Source: a bacterium (GTDB lineage: Bacteria > Patescibacteriota > Minisyncoccia > Phycocordibacterales > UBA9973). From it: a DNA stretch of 64,000 bases. Made by a program: the position numbers and the translations under genes. The first letter of the stretch is position 1. Every line of letters begins with the position of its first letter. Where the stretch lies: assembly GCA_037130655.1 (NCBI GenBank), contig JBAXSP010000002.1, positions 13,125 through 77,124 on the forward strand, in the 5' to 3' direction. The notes under the pieces are model-generated. The model did not search any database. It was not told the origin of the DNA and saw only the letters and a list, made by a program, of their open reading frames with translations. This document shows positions 2,083 to 60,117 of the stretch, one piece after another.

Positions 2083-2294
2083 GTACTTTATAGTGGATAG
2101 CGTGTGGAGTACAACATGAAGACTAGGGAAGTTTCTAGTGACTAGTTTCTAGGTTCCAGGTTTCGAAATAAATCACAAGGCGAATTTTGGCGGAGCCAAA
2201 ATTCGCCAGACTAGCAACTAATCACTAGAAACTAGAACCTAGGCAAATAACACTTGCAAAAAAAGTGAAATAGTATATAATCTTCTTATAAATT

Positions 2295-2648
2295 ATGGCA
2301 ATCAAAAAAACCACAAAAACTGAAGAAGTCAAGGAGTTTGCAGTCATCGCAACAGGTGGCAAACAATACCAAGTCTCTGTAGGCGAAATCATCCAAATCG
2401 AGAAGCTCGATGGTGAATTCAAATTGGGTGACAAAATCGTTTTTGACAAAGTACTCCTCGTAGACAATGGCAAAGATACAACTATCGGCGCTCCATACAT
2501 CAAAGGCGCAAAGGTAGAAGCATTGTTCCAAAAAGCTGACCGTTACAAGACAATTGATGTTATCAAATACAAGTCAAAGTCTCGTTACTTCAAGAAAAAT
2601 GGTCACCGACAACCATACATCGAAGTAAAGATCTCAGCAATTGCGTAA
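2295..2648 (+). CDS. rplU: 50S ribosomal protein L21
   Basis: 117 aa; FAVIATGGKQYQV is the L21 signature. TATAAT sits about 12 nt upstream of the ATG. Confidence 0.9.
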   Translation: MAIKKTTKTEEVKEFAVIATGGKQYQVSVGEIIQIEKLDGEFKLGDKIVFDKVLLVDNGKDTTIGAPYIKGAKVEALFQKADRYKTIDVIKYKSKSRYFKKNGHRQPYIEVKISAIA

Positions 2649-2672
2649 GCAAAAGCACCTAGCTACTAGCCA

Positions 2673-2716
2673 AAACAAAAGAGCGACAACCCTAGGATTG
2701 TCGCTCTTTTGTTTAT
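2673..2716. terminator. bidirectional rho-independent terminator (15-bp stem, CCCTAGG loop)
   Basis: acaaaagagcgacaa-ccctagg-attgtcgctcttttgt between the convergent rplU and recR, with A/T tracts on both sides. Confidence 0.7.
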
Positions 2717-2739
2717 TAGTCATTGGTCATTAGTAATTA

Positions 2740-3345
2740 TTATTGTCTATTTCTGAGCGCATATTTGATCGTATCTGCATCAGAGTATTCGAGCTCCGTA
2801 CCAGTTGAAAGTCCTCGTCCAAGACTGACCAATTTGATGTCAGTACCTTCCAAATAATTTTTCAATGTATTTCTAATATATTCATCGGTATGTGTGCCTG
2901 ATGGAGTCAAAGAAAAAGCCAGAACAATTTCTTTCAATCCGTCTTTTTTCAAATCAACTACACGTTTGACCATTTCTCGTAGACGCAAAAATTCACTCGG
3001 ATTCTTTTCCAAAATCGGCACCAATCCACCGAGCACAAAATAAAAGCCGTTATATGTTTTGCTTTTTCGAAAGGCTTCGAGGTCTGCATCTTTTTCGACA
3101 ATCAATAGGGAAGTTGTATCTTCAGCCGTAGTACAAAACAGACAAATCTCTTGAGGACCAGAGAAAAATCGCTGACACAACGGACAAATTCGCACCCCGT
3201 CTTTCACATGAGTAATTGCATCAGAAAGTGAGTCCAAATACTGTTTGTCTTTGGTCAGCAAGAAATAAACAAAGCGTTTTGATTGACGTTCACCAATTCC
3301 AGGAAATTGTTTGAAATATTCAGCTAGTTTGTCGATAGGGTTCAT
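2740..3345 (-). CDS. recR: recombination protein RecR
   Basis: 201 aa with a C4 zinc finger (CPLCQRF...CLFC) and Toprim-like core typical of RecR. The start is preceded by tctGaTATACT and then 9 nt. Confidence 0.9.
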   Translation of the reverse strand: MNPIDKLAEYFKQFPGIGERQSKRFVYFLLTKDKQYLDSLSDAITHVKDGVRICPLCQRFFSGPQEICLFCTTAEDTTSLLIVEKDADLEAFRKSKTYNGFYFVLGGLVPILEKNPSEFLRLREMVKRVVDLKKDGLKEIVLAFSLTPSGTHTDEYIRNTLKNYLEGTDIKLVSLGRGLSTGTELEYSDADTIKYALRNRQ

Positions 3346-12648: not shown

Positions 12649-13707
12649 ATGAACAACGCAATCAAAATTTTATTACCAGTTATCATTTCCTTCATTGTAG
12701 GATTTCTTATTACTGGACCATTGTCAAAATTTTTTATCAAATACAAACTCTGGAAAAAACACGCCCGTACTGATAGTGAAATGGTTTCAGAAGAATTTAA
12801 AAAAGTTCACAACACCGAAGCAGAGCTCGGTACACCACGTGTTGGAGGAATTATCATTTGGGCATCAGTCTCAATCACGATTGCATTGTTTTATATTTTT
12901 TCAATACTTTCTCACTCACCACTTGCAATCAAGCTCAATTTCCTGAGTAAGAGTCAGACAGTCGTGCCCCTTGCAGCATTTTTGCTTTCTGCAGGACTTG
13001 GATTGATTGATGATCTTGCGCAAGTGTTTGGTAAAGGATCTTATGCTCGTGATTCTATTTCAAATCGCAAAACAAAAGTTGGACTCATTATCTTCATCAG
13101 TCTTCTTATTTCACTTTGGTTTGTATTCAAACTCGGAAGAACATATATCGGCGTTCCATTTCTGGGGCCGATTGAACTCGGCGGAATTGGGTTCACGCTT
13201 TTCTTCATCATTACTACACTCGCAGTTTTTTCATCAAGTGTTATTGATGGCATCGATGGACTCGCCGCTGGAGTTCTCACACCAATTTTTGGTGCATACA
13301 CCGTCATTGCGTATAGTAACAACCAGATTAACCTCGCAGCTTTTTGTGCGGTGATCACTGGAGCAATTTTGGTATTTCTCTGGTTTAATGTTCCACCTGC
13401 ACGATTCTACATGGGAGAGACAGGAATGCTCGCATTGACGGTAGTCCTTTCTGTTATTGCATTTCTTACTGACACCGTACTTGTATTGCCATTGATTGCA
13501 TTTCCACTTGTCATGACTTCATTCTCTGTTGTTGTCCAAGTGCTTTCATACAAATACCGAAACAAAAAGCGAGTGTTTCTTGTGACACCGCTTCATCATC
13601 ACTTCGAAGCAAAAGGTTGGACTCGTCCATGCATCACGATGCGTTATTGGATTATTAGTATTGTCTGCAGTGTTCTTGGAACAATCATTGTAATCATTAG
13701 TCGTTAG
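12649..13707 (+). CDS. mraY: phospho-N-acetylmuramoyl-pentapeptide transferase MraY
   Basis: 10-TM protein with DGIDGLAAG and TPLHHHFE motifs. Confidence 0.9.
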   Translation: MNNAIKILLPVIISFIVGFLITGPLSKFFIKYKLWKKHARTDSEMVSEEFKKVHNTEAELGTPRVGGIIIWASVSITIALFYIFSILSHSPLAIKLNFLSKSQTVVPLAAFLLSAGLGLIDDLAQVFGKGSYARDSISNRKTKVGLIIFISLLISLWFVFKLGRTYIGVPFLGPIELGGIGFTLFFIITTLAVFSSSVIDGIDGLAAGVLTPIFGAYTVIAYSNNQINLAAFCAVITGAILVFLWFNVPPARFYMGETGMLALTVVLSVIAFLTDTVLVLPLIAFPLVMTSFSVVVQVLSYKYRNKKRVFLVTPLHHHFEAKGWTRPCITMRYWIISIVCSVLGTIIVIISR

Positions 13708-13810
13708 GCGCTAGCTTGTAGGCTCTAGCAGATTATTTTGCGGAGCAAAATAATCTTAGTGTATTTTTTCCTAGAGCCTAGCGTCTGTCACCTAGAGCCT
13801 TTCAAAAACT
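13708..13810. repeat. CTAG-rich nested palindromic intergenic element (GCGGAGC-core family)
   Basis: gctctagc-agattattttgc-ggag-caaaataatct...cctagagcctagc. It shares the core TTTTG(G)CGGAGC(C)AAAA with the element at 2101-2250. Confidence 0.5.
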
Positions 13811-13853
13811 CTCTATTGTATAAAAGAAAATTCAAGTATAATAATCATTACTA

Positions 13854-14981
13854 ATGCCTGCACAAGATATTAAAAATAAACCATTCGACAAAATATTTTT
13901 TGGAATTGTCATCACACTACTAGTGATTGGTGTTTTTTCTTTTGTGTCAGCATCATTTGGTATTCTAGCCAAAAATACGGCGAAATTTTATAGTGTTGTA
14001 CTCAATCATATTTTACTTGGTTTAGTTGGTGGCTTGATAGCTTTGTATATCACATCTCGTATTCCATACACCTTTTGGAAAAAACGAGCATTTTATCTTT
14101 TCTTGGGAGCTGTCGGCGCAACTTGTTTAGTTTTCGTACCAGCACTTGCACTCAAACACGGCGGAGCACAACGTTGGATCTCTATTGGCCCAGTATCATT
14201 TCAACCAGCTGAATTATTGAAAATCGCATTCGTGATTTATTTTGCAGGCTGGTTATCATGGGCAAAAGGCAGAGTCAAAGATTTCAAATTTAGTATCTTG
14301 CCACTGATTATCCTCCTCGGTATTGTTTCTGTGGTACTCCTCAAACAACCTGACACAAAGAGTCTTATTTTGATGATTGTATCAGCACTCGGTATGCTCA
14401 TTGTTTCTGGTGTTCGTTGGAAACACATTCTACTCACTGGCGGGGTAGCAGTACTGGCGCTATTGATACTACTTACCTTCAAACCATACCTCAAAGACCG
14501 TTTAATGACCTTTATGGACCCTTCTCGAGACCCATCTGGCTCTTCATATCAATTACAACAATCACTTATTGCTATCGGCTCAGGAGGTATTACTGGACGG
14601 GGATATGGCCAAAGTATTCAGAAATTCAGCTATCTTCCAGAACCACAAGGTGACTCAATTTTTGCCGTCATGGGGGAGGAATACGGCTTTATTGGAGGAA
14701 TACTCATCATTGCACTCTATGTGGCTTTTGCGTTGCGTGGACTAAAGATTGCCAATAATACCAATGATCAATTTGGTAAATTACTTGTCACCGGACTTGT
14801 TATTTTAATCACTGCTCAATCATTCTTGAACATTGCTTCGATTGTCGGACTCTTCCCGTTGACCGGCGTTCCACTTGTCTTTATGAGTCACGGAGGAACC
14901 GCATTACTCTTTTCACTCGCAGCAGTTGGAATCATTTTGAATGTGTCGAGAAGCAACAAATATAATACTGTGGTAAAATAA
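13854..14981 (+). CDS. ftsW: cell division protein FtsW (SEDS family)
   Basis: 375 aa, 10 TM, SEDS motifs (GQS...PEPQGD, MSHGGTALL), between mraY and murG. Confidence 0.85.
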   Translation: MPAQDIKNKPFDKIFFGIVITLLVIGVFSFVSASFGILAKNTAKFYSVVLNHILLGLVGGLIALYITSRIPYTFWKKRAFYLFLGAVGATCLVFVPALALKHGGAQRWISIGPVSFQPAELLKIAFVIYFAGWLSWAKGRVKDFKFSILPLIILLGIVSVVLLKQPDTKSLILMIVSALGMLIVSGVRWKHILLTGGVAVLALLILLTFKPYLKDRLMTFMDPSRDPSGSSYQLQQSLIAIGSGGITGRGYGQSIQKFSYLPEPQGDSIFAVMGEEYGFIGGILIIALYVAFALRGLKIANNTNDQFGKLLVTGLVILITAQSFLNIASIVGLFPLTGVPLVFMSHGGTALLFSLAAVGIILNVSRSNKYNTVVK

Positions 14982-17660: not shown

Positions 17661-17758
17661 GCCCTTGTCCGACACGTAGCAAAACCACGTGTCGGACAAG
17701 GGCGTCAATCTTATTGCGACATTAATCCTTATATAATATATAAGGATTAATGTCGCAA
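17661..17758. repeat. two adjacent long perfect hairpins (17-bp and 21-bp stems)
   Basis: GCCCTTGTCCGACACGT-agcaaaacc-ACGTGTCGGACAAGGGC (17661-17703) and TTGCGACATTAATCCTTATAT-aat-ATATAAGGATTAATGTCGCAA (17714-17758). A third partial tgcgacat copy follows. Confidence 0.6.
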
Positions 17759-17795
17759 AAGATATATTGTGCGACATATATATAGTTTTCCACAC

Positions 17796-18725
17796 CTAGT
17801 TCCCTGAAGCAGCACAGTTGTTGAATGACTTGACCTCGTCATTATATTCTTGCACTAATTTTCTTGTATCCGAAACAAGTTTATTATATTCATCGACAAG
17901 TTTGTTATAAGATTTAATTTTGTCAGCGTATCCAAGGAGACTGCTCGCTGAAGGTGCTGTTACCTCCCCCTTCATGGTGGTCAAAGTTTTTTCAAGTGTC
18001 GCTAAATGTATTTGATTATTTTCAACTTGGTTTTTTATTGTCTCACTGACAAATGGACAAGCATTTCGTGGTAAACCAAAATGTTGAACAGCGAACCATA
18101 CCTCATTACCGTGATAATTTCCTTTCACAATTCCGACACCAATTTCGGTATATCTAAAATTCAAAATATTTGCTCGGTGTCCAGGACTATTCATCCACGC
18201 AGTGACAACAGCATCACTGTTTTCAAAATTACCTAATGCCAAATTTTCACCAATCATAATATATTCATACCCTTGATTTTCAACTAAATCAGAAACACCT
18301 TTTCCGTCGGGTGATTGGTGTTCAAAATATTGTCGAACCAACATATCATTGGCTTTGAATTCTGCAGAATTATCCAAATTCAAACTTTCTTTCAAAGGTG
18401 AGAGTCCGTGAGAAACACGCTCTCTGTTTGTTGCGCTGATAATTCCTGCCAATGTTAGTGGGTCGTTTTTTGTTGATATCTTGTCTTTGAAATTTTTAAT
18501 AACAGAAAAAGCGCCTGCGTTATTTACTGTCTTATCTTTGACTTGTTCAGTGTCATTTGTATTTTCAACAGAACTTGTAGAACTAGCATGATTAAAATCA
18601 TTCAAGAAAGTACTAATCTTTACATAAGCAATTTTAAGATCATCACGCATCGTATAGATGGAGAAAATGACAAACAATATGAGAAGTATTCTAAAAAATT
18701 TCATTGTATATAAATTATATGACAA
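17796..18725 (-). CDS. CAP/SCP/PR-1 domain secreted protein (YkwD-like) with C-terminal coiled coil
   Basis: N-terminal TM anchor, CAP core (HQSPDGKG...NSPGHRANILNFRYTEIGVGIV) and a coiled-coil tail. Confidence 0.75.
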   Translation of the reverse strand: MSYNLYTMKFFRILLILFVIFSIYTMRDDLKIAYVKISTFLNDFNHASSTSSVENTNDTEQVKDKTVNNAGAFSVIKNFKDKISTKNDPLTLAGIISATNRERVSHGLSPLKESLNLDNSAEFKANDMLVRQYFEHQSPDGKGVSDLVENQGYEYIMIGENLALGNFENSDAVVTAWMNSPGHRANILNFRYTEIGVGIVKGNYHGNEVWFAVQHFGLPRNACPFVSETIKNQVENNQIHLATLEKTLTTMKGEVTAPSASSLLGYADKIKSYNKLVDEYNKLVSDTRKLVQEYNDEVKSFNNCAASGN

Positions 18726-22981: not shown

Positions 22982-23051
22982 CAATAAAAATTGGAACTTT
23001 TTAGGTTCCAATTTTTGATTTCATTCCTAATTCTTAATTCGTAATTCCTAA

Positions 23052-24020
23052 TTATTCCCCTTCTTCCTCGCCCACCTCGCCAGCTTGCAATGCATCAATA
23101 ATTTTACCGATATTTCCAGCCATAATACCTGGAAGGTTTGACCAGGACTGTCTGATTCGGTGATCTGTTACACGGTCTTGTGGGAAGTTGTAGGTACGAA
23201 TTTTTTCACTTCGATCCCCTGTTCCAATCTGATTTTTTCGTTCACCTGCATATTTTTTTGCTTCTTCTTCATCTTTCAGTGTTTGCAATTTGTTCATCAA
23301 AATAGCCATGGCTGTTTCTCTGTTTGCTAATTGACTTCGCTCTGAGGTAGAACGAACATCGAGACCTGTTGGCTTGTGAATGATACGCACCGCTGTTTCA
23401 ACTTTGTTCACATTCTGTCCTCCTGCACCACCTGAACGAGAATATTCCATTTCAAAATCAGCAGGATTAACCTCTATGGTTGTCTTCTTGCGAAGTGGAA
23501 GCACTGCCACTGTTGCTGTAGATGTGTGTATACGGCCATTTTTTTCAGTATCAGGTACACGTTGTACTCGGTGTGTCCCTGTTTCAAACTGAAGCATTTT
23601 ATAAATATCTTTTCCATGAGCCTCAGCTACTACTTCTTTGAATCCACCAACATCACTATTTGAGCGGTCGATAATCTTGAAATTCCAACCTTTTGATTCT
23701 CCGTATTTTTGATACATTTCATACAACTCAAAAGCAAAGAGCGATGACTCGTCCCCTCCTGCACCTGCACGGATTTCCAAAATAACTTCATTAGGAAATT
23801 CTATTTCTTCTTTTTCTGTATCGAGTATTGCTTTTATTTGAACAAGCACACCTTCTTTTGTCGTTTTCAATGTATCCAAATCACTTTTAGCTAATTCTGC
23901 CATTTCAGGATCTTGTGACATCAACAACAAATCGGCTTCCTCTTTTTCTAGGCGCTCCAAATATTCTGCCAAATAAGCAGTTTTGTGATCTTGTTTGAGT
24001 TGTTGTATATCGTATTCCAT
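23052..24020 (-). CDS. prfA: peptide chain release factor 1
   Basis: GGQ motif ([11 protein letters not shown]) and the RF1-type recognition loop [17 protein letters not shown] (PxT type, not SPF). Confidence 0.85.
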
Positions 24021-24360: not shown

Positions 24361-25743
24361 TTACAGGTTCTGCAACGGGTCAATCATTGTTTCTTGAATC
24401 TTCTTGGCAATTGCCGTCACACTGTTTCCATAGAACGAATTTGGTGGTTTACGTCCATCTTTACAAGCCGCCCCTGAATAATACCGACAAGCGGCATTAC
24501 GCTCTGCGGTGTATCCACCAGCCGCTGCCCCACGATCAGCCAAATAAAGTGCGGTAGCCATAATTGCATCTTCCGGATTCCATGGATTTGCATGAGCCTT
24601 ACCGACAGCTGTAGCTACGCGATTACGGATAGATATCCAAGTAGATGGAATAAACTGTGATGGCCCCATGGCGCCTCCCCAACCTCCTCCTGATGGACAA
24701 GAAAGCGGTGTGGTGTCTGGATCAAGCCCAAGTTCGTTCACAATTTGCAAGAAGAGTGATTGATCATCGCGCCCAGATTTTCCAGAAGCAACCTGCGCTG
24801 GACCCGGCATAATATTTCGATAACTCTTTGACGCAGGATCCCCTGCACGATTACAAGTACCAACATTTTTTCCCATATTTGACTCTTGGGTCAAAATTGC
24901 CAAAATCATTGCAGGACGAACACCGGTCTTTGCGGATGCTTCTTTGGCATACTCATACGCATCTTTGAATTGAATTGAACCAGTGTCACGCAACTTGAAC
25001 AAACTAGTCAAAATTGCATTCTTTCTTCTTTGTCTATCAGCGAGTTCTCCTTCATAAGAAGATTTTTGTTTTTCATTCAAACTCAACAATTTTTGTTGTT
25101 CTTCTTGGGTTAATTTCAATTTTTTATTTTGACTTTCAAGCTCAACTTTCGCATCCAACTGCTGATTCTTATTTGTTTCCAATTGTTTCTTTTCTGTCTC
25201 AGTATCTTGTTTTACTACCTTGATCGTATCAACAGCACTTTTTACAGAACGTTTCAATGATGCAAACGAATCTAAATCTCGATAAAAATCAGAAACTGTT
25301 TTTCCAGACAACAATACGTGCATAATATTATTCTGATCTATTTCATTGGTTTTTTTGATTAGCTGTGCCAACGAGTCGCGAGATAAATCAATCTTGTCAT
25401 CAAGCACATTAATCTTCTCAACGTGTTTTGTAATCTCTTTTGAAAGCTTTGTGATGATTGCGGTTTTTTGACTAATCAATGCTTTCAATTTTGTAATCTG
25501 AGCATTGAGTAAATCAATATCTTTTTTCAAAGAACTACTTTTACCTTTCAAATTATCAATAACCACCTGAATACTAGCAATTTCTGCATCACACACAGGA
25601 AGACGTAGACGAAGATCATCCTCACTCAAGTTTTTAATTTCAGCAGGTGTTGGACAAGTCAAAGTTTCAGCTGAAGCAATATGCGCAACAGGTGAAAAAA
25701 CAAGTATTCCAATAACAAAAATGAATAAGATTTTATTTTTCAT
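24361..25743 (-). CDS. secreted coiled-coil protein with C-terminal lytic transglycosylase (SLT/lysozyme-like) domain
   Basis: Signal peptide from MKNKILFIFVIGILVF, with the start 9 nt after TGaTATAAT. About 250 aa of coiled coil, then GVRPAMILAILTQESNMG (SLT catalytic Glu motif). Confidence 0.7.
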   Translation of the reverse strand: MKNKILFIFVIGILVFSPVAHIASAETLTCPTPAEIKNLSEDDLRLRLPVCDAEIASIQVVIDNLKGKSSSLKKDIDLLNAQITKLKALISQKTAIITKLSKEITKHVEKINVLDDKIDLSRDSLAQLIKKTNEIDQNNIMHVLLSGKTVSDFYRDLDSFASLKRSVKSAVDTIKVVKQDTETEKKQLETNKNQQLDAKVELESQNKKLKLTQEEQQKLLSLNEKQKSSYEGELADRQRRKNAILTSLFKLRDTGSIQFKDAYEYAKEASAKTGVRPAMILAILTQESNMGKNVGTCNRAGDPASKSYRNIMPGPAQVASGKSGRDDQSLFLQIVNELGLDPDTTPLSCPSGGGWGGAMGPSQFIPSTWISIRNRVATAVGKAHANPWNPEDAIMATALYLADRGAAAGGYTAERNAACRYYSGAACKDGRKPPNSFYGNSVTAIAKKIQETMIDPLQNL

Positions 25744-25801
25744 GTATCCGTGTATTATATCATAAAAAATAATGACCAATTACTAATGACCAGTGACTAA
25801 T

Positions 25802-25838
25802 AAAAAAATGGAACCCGCTGGGTTCCATTTTTTTATTT
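25802..25838. terminator. bidirectional terminator flanked by TAGTCA-type inverted repeats
   Basis: aaaaaaatggaaccc-gctg-ggttccattttttt. The flanks taatgaccaattactaatgaccagtgactaat and ggtaactagtcattagtcactagtcatta are CTAG/TAG-rich. Confidence 0.7.
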
Positions 25839-25870
25839 TGTATTTATTATTGGTAACTAGTCATTAGTCA

Positions 25871-26503
25871 CTAGTCATTACTCTCTGCTTCTTCTTTCTT
25901 CCCTTTCTTTTCTACTTCAATAGCAGAGAGATCGAGCGGAGCAGATTCTTCTGATTCTTCTTTTTGAGCTGCTACAAGCGCAACAACTTCTTCACCATCA
26001 GTGATCATTGTCACACCAGCTGGAAGTTTGATGTCTGCAACAGTGATTTGAGTATCCAAATCAACCAAAGTTGAAATGTCTACTTCAAGTGTGTGTGGCA
26101 AATCTTTTGGAAGCGCCTCAACTTCAACTTCGTGAAGCACTTTAACCAAAGTTCCTAGGTTGTTCTTTTCAGCAGGTGCTACACCAACGAATTCAAGTTG
26201 GATTGCTACTTCTACTGGTTTGTTCATATCAACAGCAAGGAAATCAACATGCATAATATGCCCTTTTACTGGGTGAAATTGCACGTCTTGGAAAAGAACG
26301 TTTTTCTTTTCTGAATCATATGAAAGTGCTACTGGAGTACTTTCACCTGCTTCTTTCCATGCTTTTACAAGGATACGAGACTCGATAGCGAGACTAGTAA
26401 CTTCTGTGTTAGCGCCATAGACAACAGCTGGTACCATGCCGTTAATTCGCAATTGGTCCAACTTGTCTGCCTTACTTCGCTTTGTTGCTGTAATACTTAT
26501 CAT
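25871..26503 (-). CDS. rplY: 50S ribosomal protein L25 / general stress protein Ctc
   Basis: Two-domain L25/Ctc form; RINGMVPAVVYG. Acidic C-terminal tail. Confidence 0.85.
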   Translation of the reverse strand: MISITATKRSKADKLDQLRINGMVPAVVYGANTEVTSLAIESRILVKAWKEAGESTPVALSYDSEKKNVLFQDVQFHPVKGHIMHVDFLAVDMNKPVEVAIQLEFVGVAPAEKNNLGTLVKVLHEVEVEALPKDLPHTLEVDISTLVDLDTQITVADIKLPAGVTMITDGEEVVALVAAQKEESEESAPLDLSAIEVEKKGKKEEAESND

Positions 26504-31116: not shown

Positions 31117-31327
31117 TTTTAGAGTTGGTTTAAGAGAAAAGACCTTATCTACTCTCTTAAACCAACTAGTCAAAATGAATCCTGAAAAGAACTATTATAG
31201 TTATATTATAGCATATAATATAAGTATTTGTCAATAGATATAAAAAGAGGCGGAAAAGCTTTGCTTTTCCGCCTCTTTTTATGTTCTAGCTAGAGCCTAG
31301 ATGCCTAGCACCTATTAGTCTAATTAA

Positions 31328-42610: not shown

Positions 42611-42737
42611 TTATTTATAAAGTGATAATAACATAAGTTTTTAAAATAGAAAATGAGCGCGAACGGAGGTCGCGCTCATTTCCTGTTTATGTTTTTTATT
42701 TACTAGAACCTAGTCACTAGCAACTAGTCACTCAGTT

Positions 42738-44465
42738 CTATCGATCCGGTGGAATTTGATAATAGTTGATCAAATATTTTGAAATTTCACCAAATTGTGG
42801 AAGTAGTGTTTGGGCGGCATATTGCACACCTTTTGGATCGCGAATATACATATAGACAATAAAACGAGGTTTACTTGCTGGGAAATACCCGAAGAATGAG
42901 TGCATATGTTTGTCATCATAATAGCCACCACCATTTGGCAAGGCAATCTGAGCAGTACCAGTCTTACCAGCGATACTGTAGTGAGGTAAACTATATTTTC
43001 CTTCGAGATACGCTTTGTCGATAATGTGCACCAACATTTCGGTAATCTTTGGTGTTGTTTCTGGTTTTAGTGCATTTCGAGCAGTAGGATATTCCAATAC
43101 TTTTGAACCAGTGTCTGCGTATAAAATCTCTTTGGCAATATGTGGGGTCACCAAGATGCCACCGTTTGCAATTGAAGCGAATGCACGAATCGCACCAACC
43201 GGCGTCAAAGCAATACCTTGCCCGAAAGAAGCATTGGCAAGTTCAACTTCATTGTTTCTTTTCAGATTACTCACCAGACCACCGATTTCAGAAGGTAGAT
43301 CAATACCGGTCTTTTCGCCAATCTTATAGGCCAACATATAGTCGCGCATTTTTTCTTTACCCAATTGTTGTTCAGTAAACACCATTCCAGTATTGAGAGA
43401 CTGATCAAGTACCGTTTGCATCGTTGCTTTTCCTCGTCCTTTTTTATCAAAGTTATTGATCGTTCTATCACCGACTTGCACGAAACCTTTGTCCATATAC
43501 GTAGTGTCCTTGGTAACCACACCAGCATCAAGTGCCGCAGCCATTACGAGTGGTTTGATAACAGAACCCATTTCATAGACTTTTTCAGTCATTGGATTGG
43601 TAAAGTTCCCGACAGATGAAGTACCGTATTCGTTTGGATTAAATGATGGCAATGAACCAATGGCTACAATCTCACCATTGTTTGGATCCATCACAATGAT
43701 ACCCGTTGATTCCGGTTGCCACTTGGTATTCAAGTCAATCAACATTTTTTCAACGTACAACTGCACTTGCGGTTCGATCGTTGTAATAATATCTCCTTCT
43801 CTGTTTGTATTTTTGAAAAAGGTCTTACTGATATTGGTAAAAATTTCAGCAAATGGATTGGTATACGCATCATCTTTACTACGAGAAAGCGTGTTGTCAT
43901 ATGAACGTTCAAGTCCATATCTACCGGTCAGTAAATCACCATCAAAACCAACGAAACCGAGTGTCTGAGCAGACATCGTACCTCCTGGATAAAAACGCCA
44001 TTTTTCTTTGTACAAAGAAACACCGGTCAAATGCAGTCCTTCAACTTGATCTGCTTGTTCTTTGGAAATACGGTTTGCAATTTCTTCATAGGGATCATTT
44101 TTACGAGCAACACTTTTGTCGAATGAAATGCGATCAAGCGGAACGATGGCATTTATTTTTTGAAATATTTCTTCAGGATTTACAATCTTTTTAGGATTGA
44201 TAGCAATACGAAAACCAGTCATCACGGTTGCAGCAGATACGGTGGTGCCGTCTTTTTTTGAAAAATAAATAGTACCCCGTTCAAAAATTGAACCAGCTGG
44301 TGTTGAGTATTGACGATCAGCTTTGTCGCTATAACTTCTCCCATGAACTACCTGCAAAAAAAATAAGCGTACCACAATAAGCACACCAGCAAAGATGATT
44401 AGTATCGAGATCCAACCGATACGATTAAGACTTGTATATTTTTTTTTGAGATTAGTGATCTGCAT
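42738..44465 (-). CDS. ftsI: penicillin-binding protein, class B transpeptidase (FtsI)
   Basis: SVIKP (SxxK), SLN and KTGTAQ motifs; N-terminal TM. Sits in the mraZ-rsmH-ftsL cluster. Confidence 0.85.
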   Translation of the reverse strand: MQITNLKKKYTSLNRIGWISILIIFAGVLIVVRLFFLQVVHGRSYSDKADRQYSTPAGSIFERGTIYFSKKDGTTVSAATVMTGFRIAINPKKIVNPEEIFQKINAIVPLDRISFDKSVARKNDPYEEIANRISKEQADQVEGLHLTGVSLYKEKWRFYPGGTMSAQTLGFVGFDGDLLTGRYGLERSYDNTLSRSKDDAYTNPFAEIFTNISKTFFKNTNREGDIITTIEPQVQLYVEKMLIDLNTKWQPESTGIIVMDPNNGEIVAIGSLPSFNPNEYGTSSVGNFTNPMTEKVYEMGSVIKPLVMAAALDAGVVTKDTTYMDKGFVQVGDRTINNFDKKGRGKATMQTVLDQSLNTGMVFTEQQLGKEKMRDYMLAYKIGEKTGIDLPSEIGGLVSNLKRNNEVELANASFGQGIALTPVGAIRAFASIANGGILVTPHIAKEILYADTGSKVLEYPTARNALKPETTPKITEMLVHIIDKAYLEGKYSLPHYSIAGKTGTAQIALPNGGGYYDDKHMHSFFGYFPASKPRFIVYMYIRDPKGVQYAAQTLLPQFGEISKYLINYYQIPPDR

Positions 44466-45700: not shown

Positions 45701-45881
45701 AAGAGAATGAATAATTAGTAATGCATAATTAATGATGAATAATCACAAAATTACGAGAACACTCATAAATGAATGTAGTTCGAGGCGAGATGGCTAAACT
45801 GTGAGGAAATGTACTTGGTTTGTACATTGACGAATAGTTTAGTCATTTCAACGAAGAAATACGTCATTTATGTGGGTTCTT

Positions 45882-52876: not shown

Positions 52877-54544
52877 TTATAGACACAATCTCACTAAACG
52901 GATTGTTTCGTAATCATATTTGCCTTTCAATAATTCAAAGACTGGTTTGAGTGGACGTTGTCCACCATCTTGTGTACCGAGTTTATGAAAAGCCATTGCA
53001 ATCGTTTTGTATTTTGTCGCACCAAGATCTTTCATCAATCGTTTGAGGTAAAATGACGGATCTTCTTCTTTGAGTTTTTCCAAGTGATCAACAATCGTAC
53101 CGATAGTTACATCACGTTCTTTGGCGATTTCTTGTACCGTCATTCCCGCTTCAAATAATTCACGCGTAATTTGAGTGGTTGGTTTTTTGACGATTTTTTC
53201 TTTTTTGTTACTCGTGCGAGCAATGAAGTCGGTGTGGGCGCGCGAAATTTCGTCCTCTTTCAGAGACGAAATTTCGCGCGCCATATCCTCCGACTGTATC
53301 TTAAACTGCTCATCAAAATACACCACCTCATCGTGCATTATATATGCTTGCTCTGAAATACCAAGCAGGTGCACTCCATCTAATGTTCGAAGACGCGAAA
53401 GTGCCACATATCCCATCCCTGGTTCAAATACATCAGAGAGATCCATCACCGCTCGATCGAGTGACATCCCTTGACTTTTGTGTACCGTAATAGCCCATGC
53501 CAAACGAAGTGGATACTGCATAATTTCCGCTTTCTTTTTTCCGTCCTCATCAATAGACCAAGACTCTTGCGGAACAATCACAATGTCACCATTTCTTTTT
53601 TTGACATGAATTTCACTGGTCGACAAAAACACGACTTCTCCCTGAGTTCCATTGACGAATTCTTTGTCAAAATTATTTTTGACAAACATCACCTGTGCCC
53701 CAACCTTAAGCCGTAGAATTTCAGGAGCCAAACAACTTTTTTTCAACATCAAACAGAGATTCGGATTCCCCCGCTCCGTCATAATATATTCAACAAAATT
53801 AGTATCAATTTTGTTGAGCTCTCGTTCATTTTCTACATCAACATTGATATTTTTTGCGTACAATTTTGTTGTACCAACGACATCACTGTGTTCAACCATT
53901 CGCTCATGAAGCAATGCTTTAATGTCTCGGTCAACGCGACGATCACGCATTGCATTCAACACATCAAGCAACATATCATCAGCTTGTCGGTGTTGTTCGT
54001 GAATATAACAAATCGCCAAATCCAAATCTTTCCATGAACGACTATGGTACGCGAAACTTGTTTTCTCTTCTTCAAACAACTGAGAATCTGCATCATTGTT
54101 TCTCCGTGTAATCGGTGGTAATTGGAAAAAGTCTCCAGAAAAAATAACCTGCATTCCACCAAACGGCAAATCAACCCCTTTGACTCTTCGAACCACTCGA
54201 TCAATCAAATCAATTCGAAAATCATGCAACATTGAAATTTCATCAATGATCAACACTTGTGTTTCAAAAATTCGCTCTCGTAAATAGCGACGTTCGCACA
54301 ATGCATCGATATCATCTTCGTTCAAATAATCCTTGATACCGATACCACTCCACGCATGAATCGTAATTCCTCCCATATGAGTCGAGGCAATACCCGTTGA
54401 CGCAGTAATAGCAACTGGAATATGGTGCTCTTCCAGCCATTTGATATATTCGCGCAATACATACGTTTTACCAGCACCAGCGGCTCCGGTAATAAAAGCA
54501 CTTCTGCCGGTCTTCAAAATAGTGAGTGCTTCTGCTTGTGTCAT
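52877..54544 (-). CDS. Pif1/RecD-like SF1B DNA helicase with C-terminal HTH-like domain
   Basis: Walker A ITGAAGAGKTYVL, Walker B LIIDEISML, and SF1B motifs through ~aa 420. C-terminal ~100 aa are helix-turn-helix-like. Confidence 0.8.
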   Translation of the reverse strand: MTQAEALTILKTGRSAFITGAAGAGKTYVLREYIKWLEEHHIPVAITASTGIASTHMGGITIHAWSGIGIKDYLNEDDIDALCERRYLRERIFETQVLIIDEISMLHDFRIDLIDRVVRRVKGVDLPFGGMQVIFSGDFFQLPPITRRNNDADSQLFEEEKTSFAYHSRSWKDLDLAICYIHEQHRQADDMLLDVLNAMRDRRVDRDIKALLHERMVEHSDVVGTTKLYAKNINVDVENERELNKIDTNFVEYIMTERGNPNLCLMLKKSCLAPEILRLKVGAQVMFVKNNFDKEFVNGTQGEVVFLSTSEIHVKKRNGDIVIVPQESWSIDEDGKKKAEIMQYPLRLAWAITVHKSQGMSLDRAVMDLSDVFEPGMGYVALSRLRTLDGVHLLGISEQAYIMHDEVVYFDEQFKIQSEDMAREISSLKEDEISRAHTDFIARTSNKKEKIVKKPTTQITRELFEAGMTVQEIAKERDVTIGTIVDHLEKLKEEDPSFYLKRLMKDLGATKYKTIAMAFHKLGTQDGGQRPLKPVFELLKGKYDYETIRLVRLCL

Positions 54545-58175: not shown

Positions 58176-58267
58176 ATATATTAGTTAACTTTTTTATAAA
58201 ATAGAAATTACTCAAATGCGTAAGTTCTATAAATTAAACCGCTTCGCTAGCGGTTTAATTGAGCCTA

Positions 58268-59846: not shown

Positions 59847-59859
59847 ATGCTGTATGATA

Positions 59860-59929
59860 GCGCAAAAATATAAAGAGCGGAAATTCCCTAGGGAATTTCC
59901 GCTCTTTATATTTTTGCGCTTACGCGCGT
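59860..59929. terminator. 70-nt perfect palindrome centred on CCCTAGGG (bidirectional terminator-like)
   Basis: gcgcaaaaatataaagagcggaaattcc-ctag-ggaatttccgctctttatatttttgcgc between csp and the EVE gene. Confidence 0.7.
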
Positions 59930-60117
59930 GCTACGTTTACAGCAGATGGGCCTTTGTCGCCTTGTACTACTTCAAAAGTAACTTCATCTCCTTCACGCAA
60001 ATCTTCGAATGTTACTCCACTCAATTCTTTTGAGTGAAAAAACAAATCTTTTGTTTCGCCTTCACGAGTGATGAATCCGAATCCTTGCTCTTTAAGAGTT
60101 TTGATTGTTCCTTTCAT
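59920..60117 (-). CDS. cspA: cold-shock protein (CspA family)
   Basis: 65 aa; KGFGFI RNP1 and FFHS RNP2 motifs. Confidence 0.9.
   Translation of the reverse strand: MKGTIKTLKEQGFGFITREGETKDLFFHSKELSGVTFEDLREGDEVTFEVVQGDKGPSAVNVARA

What the first reader, a model, noticed from the sequence alone, without database searches (positions are those of the whole stretch)
2101..2250. Family of CTAG-rich nested palindromic intergenic elements with a shared TTTTG(G)CGGAGC(C)AAAA core
The element between corA and rplU has the form ctagtgactagtttctaggttcc...ggcgaattttgg-cggag-ccaaaattcgcc...actaatcactagaaactagaacctagg: ~23-bp inverted arms around a 12-bp inner hairpin. The element at 13708-13810 shares the central tattttgcggagcaaaata and CTAG-rich arms (gctctagc/ctagagcc). 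Related CTAG/TAGTCA-rich arms flank hairpins at 2717-2740, 25781-25885, 31270-31320, 42695-42740 and 58230-58260, and the 70-nt perfect palindrome at 59860 is centred on CCCTAGGG. CTAG is usually rare in bacterial genomes, and these sequences put stop codons in all six frames. They look like a genome-specific REP/MITE-like family, or a protein-binding or termination signal.
Basis: seen in the sequence. Interest (0 to 1): 0.55.

Follow-up and report, generated by a model that had tools for sequence, protein, structure and literature searches.

The report
Seven-base stop-codon repeats flanking terminators
In this tiny-genome (Patescibacteria/CPR) bacterium about a fifth of the transcription-terminator hairpins are flanked by short inverted arrays of a 7-base CTAG repeat that closes every reading frame; this resembles the long-known but unexplained heptanucleotide repeats of cyanobacteria, and one copy is conserved far better than neutral sites.

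Summary
CTAG/TAG occurs in arrays with a strict 7-nt period (YTAG-NNN, often TAG-TGA-C). Eight arrays are seen against 0.07 expected, and none at other periods.

The arrays abut ordinary intrinsic terminator hairpins, usually on both sides in inverted orientation. Elements 1 and 4 therefore fold into long composite hairpins. About 7 of 34 terminators in the window carry arrays.

The "GCGGAGC core" is shared by only two hairpins and is not a family signature. The hairpins at 58236 and 59859 are plain terminators.

The genome is a Paceibacteria MAG. Arrays are roughly 10 times denser here than in 1.2 Mb from 80 relatives, vary in presence and copy number between congeners, and recur at gene junctions in other low-GC metagenome contigs.

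Element 1 differs at 6.5% of sites from a congener whose synonymous sites differ at 25-48%, so it is constrained. I found no target-site duplications, no near-identical copies and no transposase, so it is not MITE- or REP-like.

Best reading: STRR-like heptad arrays co-opted into ribosome-proof, stem-extended terminators. A protein-binding role (HutP-like UAG-N4 logic) is not excluded.

The parts
2123..2159 (.). Element 1, left heptad array: CTAGGGAAGTTT CTAGTGA CTAGTTT CTAGGTT CCAG. It reads toward the hairpin on the + strand.
   Evidence: Pairs with 2211-2245 in the fold. 34/37 identical to congener L002.
2179..2207 (-). Element 1, inner hairpin GGCGAATTTTGGC-GGA-GCCAAAATTCGCC. Terminator-like on the minus strand, with tail TTGTGATTTATTT. 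It lies between the divergent corA and rplU promoters.
   Evidence: 29/29 identical in L002.
2211..2245 (.). Element 1, right heptad array: CTAGCAA CTAATCA CTAGAAA CTAGAAC CTAGGCA. It ends 9 nt before the rplU -35 box (TTGCAA at 2254).
2659..2672 (.). Element 2, left array after the rplU stop: CTAGCTA CTAGCCA. There are 2 heptads here and 4 in congeners L002, L004, L009 and L010.
2673..2714 (.). Element 2, bidirectional terminator between the convergent rplU and recR genes, with a CCCTAGGA apex.
   Evidence: (I10, 21+21 nt, 95%). Compensatory stem variants in congeners.
2717..2745 (.). Element 2, right array: TTAGTCA TTGGTCA TTAGTAA TTATTAT. On the recR sense strand it reads TAATGAC-type double-stop heptads.
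13697..13731 (.). Element 3, left array: TTAGTCG TTAGGCG CTAGCTT GTAGGCT CTAGCAG. It starts inside the last codons of mraY, and the mraY TAG stop at 13705 is in register.
13730..13769 (+). Element 3, terminator hairpin AGATTATTTTGC-GGA-GCAAAATAATCT plus a T-rich tail.
13770..13799 (.). Element 3, right array: CCTAGAG CCTAGCG TCTGTCA CCTAGAGCC. It lies upstream of the ftsW promoter.
22985..23054 (.). Terminator hairpin 22985-23017 plus array 23020-23054. On the prfA sense (minus) strand the array reads TAATTAG GAATTAC GAATTAA GAATTAG GAATGAA, and it includes the prfA stop codon.
25770..25804 (.). Element 4, left array: TAATGAC CAATTAC TAATGAC CAGTGAC TAATAAA.
   Evidence: (I1, I3).
25799..25837 (.). 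Element 4, bidirectional terminator AAAAAAATGGAACCC-GCT-GGGTTCCATTTTTTT, downstream of rplY (L25).
25850..25884 (.). Element 4, right array: TTGGTAA CTAGTCA TTAGTCA CTAGTCA TTACTCT. The rplY TAG stop (25871-25873) is in register.
   Evidence: With the left array it folds into a 121-nt hairpin, z = -11.2.
31240..31327 (-). Element 5: terminator 31240-31282 preceded, on the sense (minus) strand, by the array 31286-31327: TAA TTAATTAG AC TAA TAG GTGC TAG GCATC TAG GCTC TAG C TAG. The period is less regular (7, 8, 7, 4).
   Evidence: (I12).
42644..42740 (-). Element 6: terminator 42651-42681 preceded, on the sense (minus) strand, by the array 42703-42740. On the + strand the array reads CTAGAAC CTAGTCA CTAGCAA CTAGTCA CTCAGTT CTA. 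The ftsI TAG stop is in register, and the array forms its own small hairpin.
45711..45747 (.). Possible relative: TAATTAG TAATGCA TAATTAA TGATGAA TAATCAC heptads directly upstream of the rsmH start codon. No hairpin, and the stops are on the antisense strand.
   Evidence: Membership is uncertain.

Best explanation
The elements are ordinary intrinsic terminator hairpins, several of them bidirectional. They are flanked by short degenerate arrays of a heptanucleotide repeat (YTAG-NNN; on the strand read toward the hairpin often TAR-TGA-C, that is stop-stop-N).

Because 7 = 2x3+1, each successive unit shifts the reading frame, so three units close all three frames. CTAG is a palindrome, so the other strand is closed too.

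The two arrays of a module are inverted copies of one another. The transcript can therefore extend the terminator stem into a long composite hairpin.

Shown: the periodicity, the position next to terminators, the inverted orientation, the predicted folding, the lineage specificity, and purifying selection on element 1.

Inferred origin: the arrays arise as heptanucleotide simple repeats by slippage. This is the class known as STRR in cyanobacteria and as LSSR in other bacteria. They are symmetrised around hairpins and shuffled between loci by recombination. In a 92%-coding genome, only stop-rich units survive next to gene ends.

Inferred function: some copies have been co-opted. They release any ribosome (read-through or frameshifted, arriving from either side) before it can melt the terminator or run to the transcript's 3' end. 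They also lengthen the 3' hairpin, giving termination and insulation between tightly packed transcription units, and possibly 3'-end stability.
For: Periodicity and clustering:
- TAG or CTA in runs of at least 3 occurs only at period 7. There are 8 arrays against 0.065 in 1000 dinucleotide shuffles, and 0 at periods 4-6 and 8-10.
- CTAG-CTAG distances peak at 7, 14 and 21.
- 32 of 79 CTAG are intergenic, p=5e-15.

Position:
- Every array but one lies 0-23 nt from a terminator-like hairpin.
- The stop codons of mraY, rplY, ftsI and prfA are in register with their arrays.

Orientation:
- The strand read toward the hairpin carries more stops, 66 against 44. It closes all three frames in 9 of 11 arrays.

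Folding:
- Elements 1 and 4 fold into long hairpins, z = -8.3 and -11.2.

Constraint:
- Against congener L002, synonymous sites differ by 25-48%. Element 1 differs at 8 of 123 sites, its arrays at 6 of 75, its hairpin at 0 of 29, and its spacer triplets not at all. P<1e-5 at a neutral rate of 0.3.

Turnover:
- The rplU 3' array has 2 or 4 heptads in different congeners.
- The same 26-nt array lies upstream of rplU in the window but downstream of it in L008.
- Arrays are absent from the orthologous mraY-ftsW and rplY-SLT spacers of congeners.

The same architecture elsewhere:
- L173 and L344 show stop, then array, then terminator.
- L164, L267, L278 and L337 show a G/T-rich array, an A-rich spacer, an A/C-rich array and then ATG.

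Literature:
- 7-bp STRR repeats form intergenic hairpins in cyanobacteria; a role in transcript stability or translational coupling has been proposed (PMC2670836).
- TAACTGA repeats close all three frames and are therefore confined to ORF ends (PMC4679880).
Against: - Only about 7 of 34 terminators carry arrays, so they are not a general requirement for termination.
- Stop codons alone would not demand period 7 (4, 5 or 8 would also rotate frames) or CTAG rather than the genome's preferred TAA.
- Between the window and L002, the changes in element 1 fall in the CTAG cores (CTAG to CTGG or CCAG) while the spacers are invariant. This is the opposite of what pure selection for stops predicts, and it fits structure or sequence-specific binding better.
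- Element 1 lies between divergent promoters, where no annotated ORF reads into it.
- The downstream arms of unidirectional terminators (13770-13799, 25770-25804) have no ribosome to stop.
- The constraint was measured at one locus and in one lineage pair only.
- There are no transcript or ribosome data.
Confidence: 0.5

Rival explanations
1. The heptad arrays are binding sites for an oligomeric nucleic-acid-binding protein. This could act on RNA, recognising UAG triplets spaced by four bases on both sides of a terminator stem, as HutP does. It could act on DNA, as ribbon-helix-helix proteins such as omega of pSM19035 bind 7-bp heptads. Either way the protein would tune termination, read-through or the adjacent promoters.
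For: - HutP binds two clusters of three XAG motifs with 4-nt spacers (period 7) that flank the G+C stem of the hut terminator (PMC2425495). The modules here have 3-5 UAG at period 7 on each side of a terminator, on both strands.
- An exact period 7 is more natural for protein geometry than for stop codons.
- Element 1 is constrained in its spacers as well, and lies directly upstream of two promoters.
- In L002 the core changes UAG to UGG or CAG, and CAG to UAG, still leave three consecutive XAG.
- The same spacer set (AAC, AAA, CAA, TCA) recurs in another species, L164.
Against: - No HutP, TRAP or ribbon-helix-helix family hit was found among the proteins of the 64-kb window.
- The arrays are 39-55 nt apart, against 12-17 nt in hut.
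- The arrays sit at 3' ends of unrelated housekeeping genes, not in leaders of a regulon.
- Heptad sequences differ widely between loci (TCA-type, GGC-type, GAA-type).
- TTGG and CTGG units break the XAG pattern.
Confidence: 0.2
2. They are neutral by-products. Heptanucleotide simple-sequence repeats are generated by replication slippage and palindrome extension at hairpins, and are merely tolerated where they do no harm.
For: - Heptanucleotide repeats are the commonest long simple repeats in many bacteria (Mrazek 2007, as summarised in PMC4679880).
- Perfect (CTAGTCA)n, (CCAGTCA)n and (TTGGTCA)n arrays abound in metagenome and viral contigs.
- Copy number varies by whole heptads.
- Arrays are absent at orthologous sites of congeners.
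- Only a minority of terminators carry them.
Against: - Element 1 evolves 4-7 times more slowly than synonymous sites.
- The arrays are degenerate in the spacer but keep the core, which is unlike fresh slippage products.
- The orientation relative to the hairpin is consistent across loci.
Confidence: 0.15
3. They are non-autonomous mobile elements (MITE, REPIN or Correia-like), mobilised in trans by a transposase such as a RAYT or an IS5-type enzyme whose target is YTAR.
For: - Inverted arms, 95-125 nt in size, and intergenic location.
- Presence/absence differences between congeners.
- An identical 26-nt block at two different positions in two lineages.
- Core variants CTAG, TTAG and CTAA equal the IS5 target YTAR (my own knowledge; untested).
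Against: - No target-site duplication at either 'empty' site. The flanks are simply diverged, and the lineages are only 82-88% identical.
- The copies are not near-identical, and their central hairpins are unrelated.
- There is no transposase gene in the window.
- Element 1 is under purifying selection at a fixed locus.
Confidence: 0.1
4. Element 1 is a small RNA gene on the minus strand. It would have a 5' single-stranded UAG-heptad region followed by the 2207-2179 terminator, and would pair with CUAG arrays in other transcripts.
For: - It is a conserved intergenic element ending in a minus-strand terminator with a U-rich tail.
- A promoter-like match on the minus strand lies at 2301-2272.
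- The arrays are mutually complementary by construction.
Against: - Promoter-like matches are no more frequent than in shuffles.
- There is no Rfam match.
- The left arm would lie outside the transcript yet is equally conserved.
- There are no expression data.
Confidence: 0.05

Closest known systems
STRR (short tandemly repeated repetitive) heptanucleotide sequences of heterocystous cyanobacteria (units recalled from memory: CCCCAGT, TTGGTCA, CAACAGT; Mazel et al. 1990)
   Same: - 7-bp unit, intergenic location, and inverted arrays able to form hairpins between genes.
- Function unknown; transcript stability or translational coupling has been proposed (PMC2670836).
- Units TTAGTCA, TTGGTCA and CTGGTCA of elements 2 and 4 match the STRR2-type unit.
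- Perfect (CTAGTCA)n and (TTGGTCA)n arrays are common in metagenome contigs.
   Different: - The arrays here are short (2-5 units) and degenerate in the 3-nt spacer, with a conserved CTAG core.
- They are systematically paired around intrinsic terminators.
- The host is a Patescibacteria genome of 37.5% G+C.
TAACTGA heptamer direct repeats of marine Beggiatoaceae, some Cyanobacteria and Bacteroidetes (MacGregor 2015, PMC4679880)
   Same: - Heptamer built from two stop codons plus one base (TGA-TAA-C there, TAG-TGA-C here).
- 2-6 copies per set, intergenic, closing all three frames and so confined to ORF ends.
- Patchy phylogenetic distribution and unknown function.
   Different: - The Beggiatoa repeats are direct, one-stranded and mostly lie immediately upstream of start codons.
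- Here they are palindromic (CTAG), in inverted pairs, and mostly lie next to terminators.
- Only 45711-45747, and the relatives L164, L278, L337, L307 and L328, resemble the upstream-of-ATG arrangement.
REP / BIME / REPIN elements of Proteobacteria
   Same: - Extragenic palindromic repeats at 3' ends and between convergent genes.
- Inverted doublets forming long hairpins.
- They can stabilise upstream mRNA and vary between strains.
   Different: - REPs are conserved 20-40-nt units with a 5' GTAG/GTGG tetranucleotide, in tens to hundreds of near-identical copies tied to a RAYT transposase.
- Here there is no conserved unit beyond a 7-nt period, and no RAYT in view.
HutP recognition sites in the Bacillus hut terminator
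   Same: - Two clusters of three (U/X)AG triplets with 4-nt spacers, that is period 7.
- The clusters flank the G+C stem of an intrinsic terminator (PMC2425495).
   Different: - The linker is 12-17 nt there and 39-55 nt here.
- hut is a single regulated leader, whereas there are many 3' ends here.
- No HutP homologue was seen in the window.
Bidirectional intrinsic terminators
   Same: The central hairpins, with an A tract, a G+C stem and a T tract, lie between convergent or tandem genes.
   Different: The flanking heptad arrays are not part of the canonical terminator.
Omega (ribbon-helix-helix) operator heptads WATCACW of plasmid pSM19035 (from memory)
   Same: - 7-bp units in direct and inverted arrays upstream of promoters.
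- AATCACT at 2219-2225 fits the consensus.
   Different: - That is a plasmid partition and copy-control system.
- Most units here do not fit WATCACW.
- No ribbon-helix-helix gene was seen.

Membership tests
Intrinsic (Rho-independent) terminator (central hairpins) | G+C-containing stem-loop followed by a T/U tract | tested here: met
   Hairpins at 2207-2179(-), 13730-13756(+), 22985-23017, 25799-25837 and 42651-42681 are listed by the scan. 2673-2714 and 31240-31282 are perfect or near-perfect A-tract/stem/T-tract palindromes.
Intrinsic (Rho-independent) terminator (central hairpins) | Located at the 3' end of a transcription unit | tested here: met
   They lie after rplU/recR, mraY, prfA, rplY, a 168-aa gene and ftsI. 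Element 1 lies upstream of corA on the minus strand, after antisense rplU.
Intrinsic (Rho-independent) terminator (central hairpins) | Transcripts actually end there | not testable with these tools
   No RNA data are available.
STRR / heptanucleotide simple-repeat arrays | Tandem units of exactly 7 nt | tested here: met
   Period 7 only.
STRR / heptanucleotide simple-repeat arrays | Intergenic location; inverted arrays able to form hairpins | tested here: met
STRR / heptanucleotide simple-repeat arrays | Near-identical units in long arrays, about 100 copies per genome, in heterocystous cyanobacteria | tested here: not met
   There are 2-5 degenerate units per array and the host is Paceibacteria. 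The genome-wide copy number is not testable.
MITE | Terminal inverted repeats, size 50-500 bp | tested here: met
   Arms are 23-38 nt and 82-91% complementary; modules are 95-125 nt.
MITE | Target-site duplication flanking the insertion | tested here: not met
   None is visible when compared with congeners lacking the element at corA-rplU and mraY-ftsW. The test is weak because those lineages are only about 87% identical.
MITE | Multiple near-identical full-length copies | tested here: not met
   Modules share only 11-15-nt words, and the central hairpins are unrelated except for a 15-17-nt apex in two of them.
REP/REPIN | Conserved 20-40-nt imperfect palindrome with a 5' GTAG/GTGG, in many copies | tested here: not met
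   There is no conserved unit beyond CTAG at period 7.
REP/REPIN | Cognate RAYT (Y1 transposase) in the genome | not testable with these tools
   None is among the Pfam hits for genes of the 64-kb window. The rest of the genome was not available.
HutP-type antiterminator site | Two clusters of three XAG triplets with 4-nt spacers | tested here: met
   Elements 1 and 3 have at least 3 UAG at period 7 on each side on the same strand. Elements 2 and 4 meet this only partly.
HutP-type antiterminator site | 12-17-nt linker; the sites overlap or flank the 5' half of a terminator in a regulated leader | tested here: not met
   Separation is 39-55 nt, and the sites are at 3' ends or between operons.
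HutP-type antiterminator site | HutP protein encoded by the genome | not testable with these tools
   No PF09021 hit in the window. The whole genome was not available.
Known RNA families (Rfam 15), including the L21 leader | Score at or above the gathering threshold | tested here: not met
   Only two tRNAs pass in the window. In 2040-2760 every match is far below its gathering score.

The most novel reading that the evidence does not exclude
The UAG-N4 heptad arrays on both sides of terminator stems are cis-elements of a genome-wide, protein-controlled termination or read-through system in a CPR bacterium. An oligomeric RNA-binding protein would work by HutP/TRAP-like triplet-repeat recognition but clamp or open many terminators. 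This would also give the first functional handle on the unexplained stop-rich heptanucleotide repeats (STRR, TAACTGA) seen in other phyla.
Probability: 0.12. Interest if true: 0.8.

Novelty: new variant of a known kind. Interest (0 to 1): 0.5.

Why it matters
Heptanucleotide intergenic repeats (cyanobacterial STRR, Beggiatoa TAACTGA) have been known for decades without an accepted function.

This case has three useful properties:
- It comes from a very compact Patescibacteria genome.
- The repeats take a simple, recurrent architecture: inverted stop-stop-N heptads bracketing intrinsic terminators.
- At least one copy is clearly under purifying selection.

That makes specific hypotheses testable with small synthetic constructs: fail-safe ribosome release ahead of the transcript's 3' end, stem-extended insulating terminators, or a triplet-repeat RNA-binding protein.

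The natural design also mirrors the 'six-frame stop plus bidirectional terminator' insulators used in synthetic biology.

If the arrays are only tolerated slippage products, the finding is a lineage-specific curiosity. It would still be useful for annotation, because the arrays mark gene ends and break assemblies.

Tried and rejected
- Ribosomal-protein (L21) leader upstream of rplU. Rejected: there is no Rfam match, and the element lies upstream of a fully conserved TTGCAA-16-TATAAT promoter that leaves a leader of about 7 nt. Relatives do have a different conserved 5'UTR hairpin.
- GCGGAGC core as a family signature. Rejected: it occurs in only two hairpins, which terminate on opposite strands.
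- Clade-wide feature. Rejected: 80 related genomes (1.22 Mb) show no period-7 excess for CTAG or for stop codons in general; only L164, L173 and a few others have similar arrays.
- 'Recent insertion in a strain'. I first read the presence/absence at corA-rplU, mraY-ftsW and rplY-SLT as strain polymorphism. BLAST showed those contigs are only 82-88% identical, so they are congeneric species. The synonymous recoding of the last six MraY codons is then ordinary divergence.
- Target-site duplications. None found.
- Candidate binding protein or transposase in the window. None among the precomputed Pfam hits or in a Pfam scan of ten unannotated proteins.
- Stop-codon context. TAG read toward the hairpin is followed by G or T in 26 of 34 cases. 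This reflects a general G/T-rich versus A/C-rich strand asymmetry, and genuine stops in this genome do not show the same bias, so it does not discriminate.
- Collection scans with CTAG-heptad patterns.
Full report
**What is in the sequence**

The region 2101-2250 reads as follows:
- CTAGGGAAGTTT CTAGTGA CTAGTTT CTAGGTT CCAG;
- then a 19-nt spacer;
- then GGCGAATTTTGGC-GGA-GCCAAAATTCGCC;
- then AGA;
- then CTAGCAA CTAATCA CTAGAAA CTAGAAC CTAGGCA.

The outer arms (2130-2152 / 2211-2233) are 23 nt long and 91% complementary (I8). As RNA, the whole 131 nt folds into one long hairpin, -54 kcal/mol, z = -8.3.

CTAG-rich arms flanking a hairpin are present at 2659-2745, 13697-13799, 25770-25884, 31240-31327 and 42644-42740. 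By contrast, 58236-58258 and 59859-59920 are simple palindromic terminators with CTAG only at the apex.

- Runs of at least three TAG (or CTA) occur only at period 7, with none at periods 5, 6, 8 or 9.
- CTAG-CTAG distances of 7, 14 and 21 occur 10, 8 and 3 times. Every other distance up to 30 occurs at most twice.
- In intergenic sequence there are 8 arrays, against a mean of 0.065 (maximum 3) in 1000 dinucleotide-preserving shuffles. There are none at periods 4, 5, 6, 8, 9 or 10.
- CTAGN3CTAGN3CTAG occurs 4 times against 0.00 in shuffles.
- An unbiased lag-autocorrelation scan finds four strong period-7 segments, all intergenic, against 0-1 at other lags. It adds an array at 23019-23057.
- A stop-codon-based scan adds 45712-45742.

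CTAG is not depleted overall (observed/expected 1.02). However, 32 of its 79 occurrences lie in the 8.2% of the window that is intergenic (p=5e-15). That is the highest intergenic share of any tetranucleotide.

**Anatomy**

The units are YTAG-NNN. On the strand read toward the neighbouring hairpin they are often TAR-TGA-C, that is two stop codons plus one base. Because 7 = 2x3+1, successive units rotate the frame.
- 9 of 11 arrays close all three frames when read toward the hairpin, and 6 of 11 when read away from it.
- The inward strand carries 66 stops against 44 on the outward strand.

All arrays except 45711-45747 lie 0-23 nt from a hairpin that the terminator scan or the repeat finder identifies as terminator-like.

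The inner hairpin of element 1 is terminator-like on the minus strand, with tail TTGTGATTTATTT. It lies between the corA promoter and a TTGCAA-16-TATAAT promoter for rplU.

The stop codons of mraY, rplY, ftsI (all TAG) and prfA (TAA) are in register with their arrays. Only 14 of 82 genes in the window use TAG.

I count roughly 34 strong terminator hairpins in the window, and 7 carry arrays. The arrays are therefore an optional addition, not part of the terminator.

**The proposed GCGGAGC core**

The heptamer occurs 7 times against 1.9 expected, but 5 of these are in coding sequence. Only the hairpins at 2179-2207 and 13730-13756 share ATTTTG(G)C-GGA-GC(C)AAAAT.

Their lower stems differ, and they terminate on opposite strands. 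No other hairpin copy exists in 1.2 Mb of relatives, apart from orthologues of element 1. It is not a family signature.

**Organism and gene context**

RplU retrieves Patescibacteria MAGs of the Paceibacteria/Parcubacteria group.

The precomputed Pfam hits give the local gene order:
- cysS-corA | rplU | recR-dnaB;
- scpAB-mraY | ftsW-murG;
- prfA-rpmE-SLT-rplY;
- mraZ-rsmH-ftsL-ftsI-tRNA-Glu.

No transposase, RAYT, HutP or ribbon-helix-helix family appears. A Pfam scan of ten unannotated proteins adds nothing. Rfam finds only two tRNAs.

**Comparison with relatives**

Contigs carrying identical RplU, L27 or L31 fall into two groups:
- the same genome as the window (L001, L211, L212, L214, L224, L233, L234);
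- congeners only 82-88% identical in nucleotide sequence.

Among the congeners:
- (a) The corA-rplU spacer is 239 nt with element 1 in the L002 group. It is 104 nt without element 1 in L006-L008, where a short stop-rich remnant remains.
- (b) The rplU 3' array has 2 heptads in the window and 4 in L002, L004, L009 and L010. L003 and L007 carry ATAG/TTAG variants, and L005 and L006 carry unrelated stop-rich sequences.
- (c) L008 carries TCTAGTGACTAGTTTCTAGGTTCTAG..ATCACAA downstream of rplU. This is the same block as window 2134-2178, which lies upstream of rplU.
- (d) mraY and ftsW are 1 nt apart in L213, L215 and L216, but are separated by the 146-nt element 3 plus a promoter in the window.
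- (e) The rplY-SLT spacer has three different terminator alleles, with heptads only in the window.

No target-site duplication is visible at either 'empty' site.

In 80 more distant relatives (1.22 Mb) there is no period-7 excess for CTAG or for stop codons in general. Exceptions are isolated arrays:
- L173 has a stop, five heptads and then a terminator.
- L164 has seven heptads at the scpA-scpB junction, using the same spacers AAC, AAA, CAA and TCA as element 1.

**Constraint**

Between the window and L002, synonymous sites differ by 0.25 (rplU), 0.44 (corA), 0.48 (recR) and 0.42 (dnaB).

Element 1 is much better conserved:
- 8 of 123 sites differ overall;
- 6 of 75 sites differ in the arrays;
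- 0 of 29 sites differ in the inner hairpin;
- no spacer triplet differs.

P(at most 8 of 123) is 1e-10 at a neutral rate of 0.3, and 3e-5 at 0.2. Element 1 is therefore under purifying selection.

The array changes in the left arm all fall in the CTAG cores (CTAG to CTGG, CTAG to CCAG, CCAG to CTAG), and one more falls in a core of the right arm. Eight of nine spacer positions in the paired arms are complementary. Together these point to selection on the stem, or on a sequence-specific site, rather than on stop codons alone.

**Wider occurrence**

Most metagenome hits are perfect (CTAGTCA)n, (CCAGTCA)n or (TTGGTCA)n arrays in contigs of 45-69% G+C. These are the classical heptanucleotide simple repeats.

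About 17 low-G+C contigs carry short degenerate arrays like those here, at gene junctions:
- stop, array, then terminator (L344, L326);
- upstream of a tRNA (L299);
- between an upstream ORF and a gene resembling ribosomal protein L14 (L307);
- in the 5'UTR of a gene resembling rpmB (L328);
- a recurrent module of TAA, then (TTAGGTT CTAGTTT CTAGGTT), then an A-rich spacer, then (CTAGCAA CTAGTCA CTAGCAC .. CTAATCA), then ATG (L267, L278, L337).

**Literature**

- Cyanobacterial STRR sequences are 7-bp repeats that form intergenic hairpins. Their function is unknown; transcript stability or translational coupling has been proposed (PMC2670836).
- TAACTGA repeats of Beggiatoaceae, some cyanobacteria and Bacteroidetes occur in sets of 2-6. 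They close all three frames and so are confined to ORF ends, and their distribution is patchy (PMC4679880).
- That paper also summarises Mrazek's observation that heptanucleotides are the commonest long simple repeats.
- HutP binds two clusters of three XAG triplets with 4-nt spacers that flank the G+C stem of the hut terminator (PMC2425495).

**Interpretation**

The best-supported reading is as follows.
- The central hairpins are ordinary intrinsic terminators.
- The arms are STRR-like heptad arrays that arise by slippage. They are made symmetrical around hairpins and exchanged between loci by recombination.
- In a 92%-coding genome, only stop-rich units survive next to gene ends.
- At least some copies are functional. 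The most economical function is a ribosome-proof, stem-extended terminator or insulator that stops ribosomes approaching from either side in any frame, before the hairpin and before the transcript's 3' end.

I give this reading 0.5, high for the description and moderate for the function. Three observations keep a protein-binding explanation alive at about 0.2: the exclusive period 7, the choice of CTAG over the preferred TAA, and the conservation of spacers rather than cores. The remaining alternatives are:
- neutral slippage, 0.15, contradicted by element 1;
- a MITE/REPIN-type mobile element, 0.1, with no target-site duplications, no near-identical copies and no transposase;
- a minus-strand small RNA for element 1, 0.05.

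**Verdict**

The shared-core idea and two of the listed loci drop out.

This is a new variant (new phylum, new palindromic architecture, evidence of constraint) of a known but unexplained kind of repeat. Interest is moderate, 0.5.

Noticed in passing
window 59859-59920: A perfect 62-nt palindrome (31+31, CCCTAGGG apex) acts as a bidirectional terminator next to a small gene at 59920-60117 (-). The Logan contig of the same genome (SRR12676975_35918) ends at about 59888, at its centre. The other contig breaks fall in tRNA-Ile (about 22.9 kb) and tRNA-Glu (about 42.6 kb).
   Followed up: partly
window 17661-17703 and 17714-17780: Two perfect palindromes lie upstream of the CAP-domain gene 17796-18725 (-). 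One is 17+17 nt (GCCCTTGTCCGACACGT...). The other is 22+22 nt (TTGCGACATTAATCCTTATATA...), with a third TGCGACAT half-site at about 17770. They look like operators or regulatory sites and are unrelated to the CTAG arrays.
   Followed up: no
window 53237-53282: A perfect 18-nt inverted repeat, GGCGCGCGAAATTTCGTC / GACGAAATTTCGCGCGCC, lies inside the Pif1-like helicase gene (52877-54544, -).
   Followed up: no
window 2276-2297, 13837-13856, 25741-25760: The -10 boxes of rplU, ftsW and the SLT gene lie only 11-13 nt before the ATG, with no Shine-Dalgarno sequence. First genes of operons appear to be leaderless or nearly so.
   Followed up: no
L135, L136, L139, L142, L144, L145, L147, L151, L153, L161 (about 20-70 nt upstream of rplU): Related Paceibacteria have a conserved 5'UTR hairpin (cctgtGGAAAcctat...ataGGtTTTCc) between a conserved promoter and rplU. 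This is a candidate ribosomal-protein L21 leader that is not in Rfam, and it is absent from the window lineage.
   Followed up: no
L003/L007 4200-4700, L005 520-980, L006 2970-3410 (the rplU-recR spacer of congeners): The convergent rplU-recR spacer holds different accessory genes in congeners: a NUDIX hydrolase, a 117-aa ORF and a 144-aa ORF. Each is inserted after the rplU terminator with its own promoter and terminator, so this spacer is an insertion hot spot.
   Followed up: partly
window 13708-13853 compared with L213 4467-4469, L215 and L216: The dcw genes mraY and ftsW are 1 nt apart in congeners. In the window genome they are split by a terminator plus a new promoter, and the N-terminus of FtsW differs (MPAQDIKN against MHNKTES).
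   Followed up: partly
window 45711-45747: There are five TAATNNN heptads directly upstream of the rsmH start codon, with no Shine-Dalgarno sequence, and the stops are on the antisense strand. This resembles the upstream-of-ATG arrangement of Beggiatoa TAACTGA repeats more than the terminator-flanking arrays.
   Followed up: partly
L183 4887-4920 and 6087-6120: Another Parcubacteria genome (GW2011_GWA1_40_21) carries CTATAAC CTAACAC CTACAAM CTAAAACCTTCCG at two loci. This is a different heptad repeat family.
   Followed up: no
window, all gene ends: Stop-codon usage is TAA 64, TAG 14 and TGA 4 of 82 ORFs. TGA is unusually rare as a gene stop yet common inside the heptads (TAG-TGA-C).
   Followed up: no
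window 2142-2160 compared with L002 9848-9866: The array differences between congeners are CTAG to CTGG or CCAG, and CCAGG to CTAGG. This is the same class of change associated with Dcm/very-short-patch repair in enterobacteria, so a methylation-linked mutational bias at these sites is conceivable.
   Followed up: no
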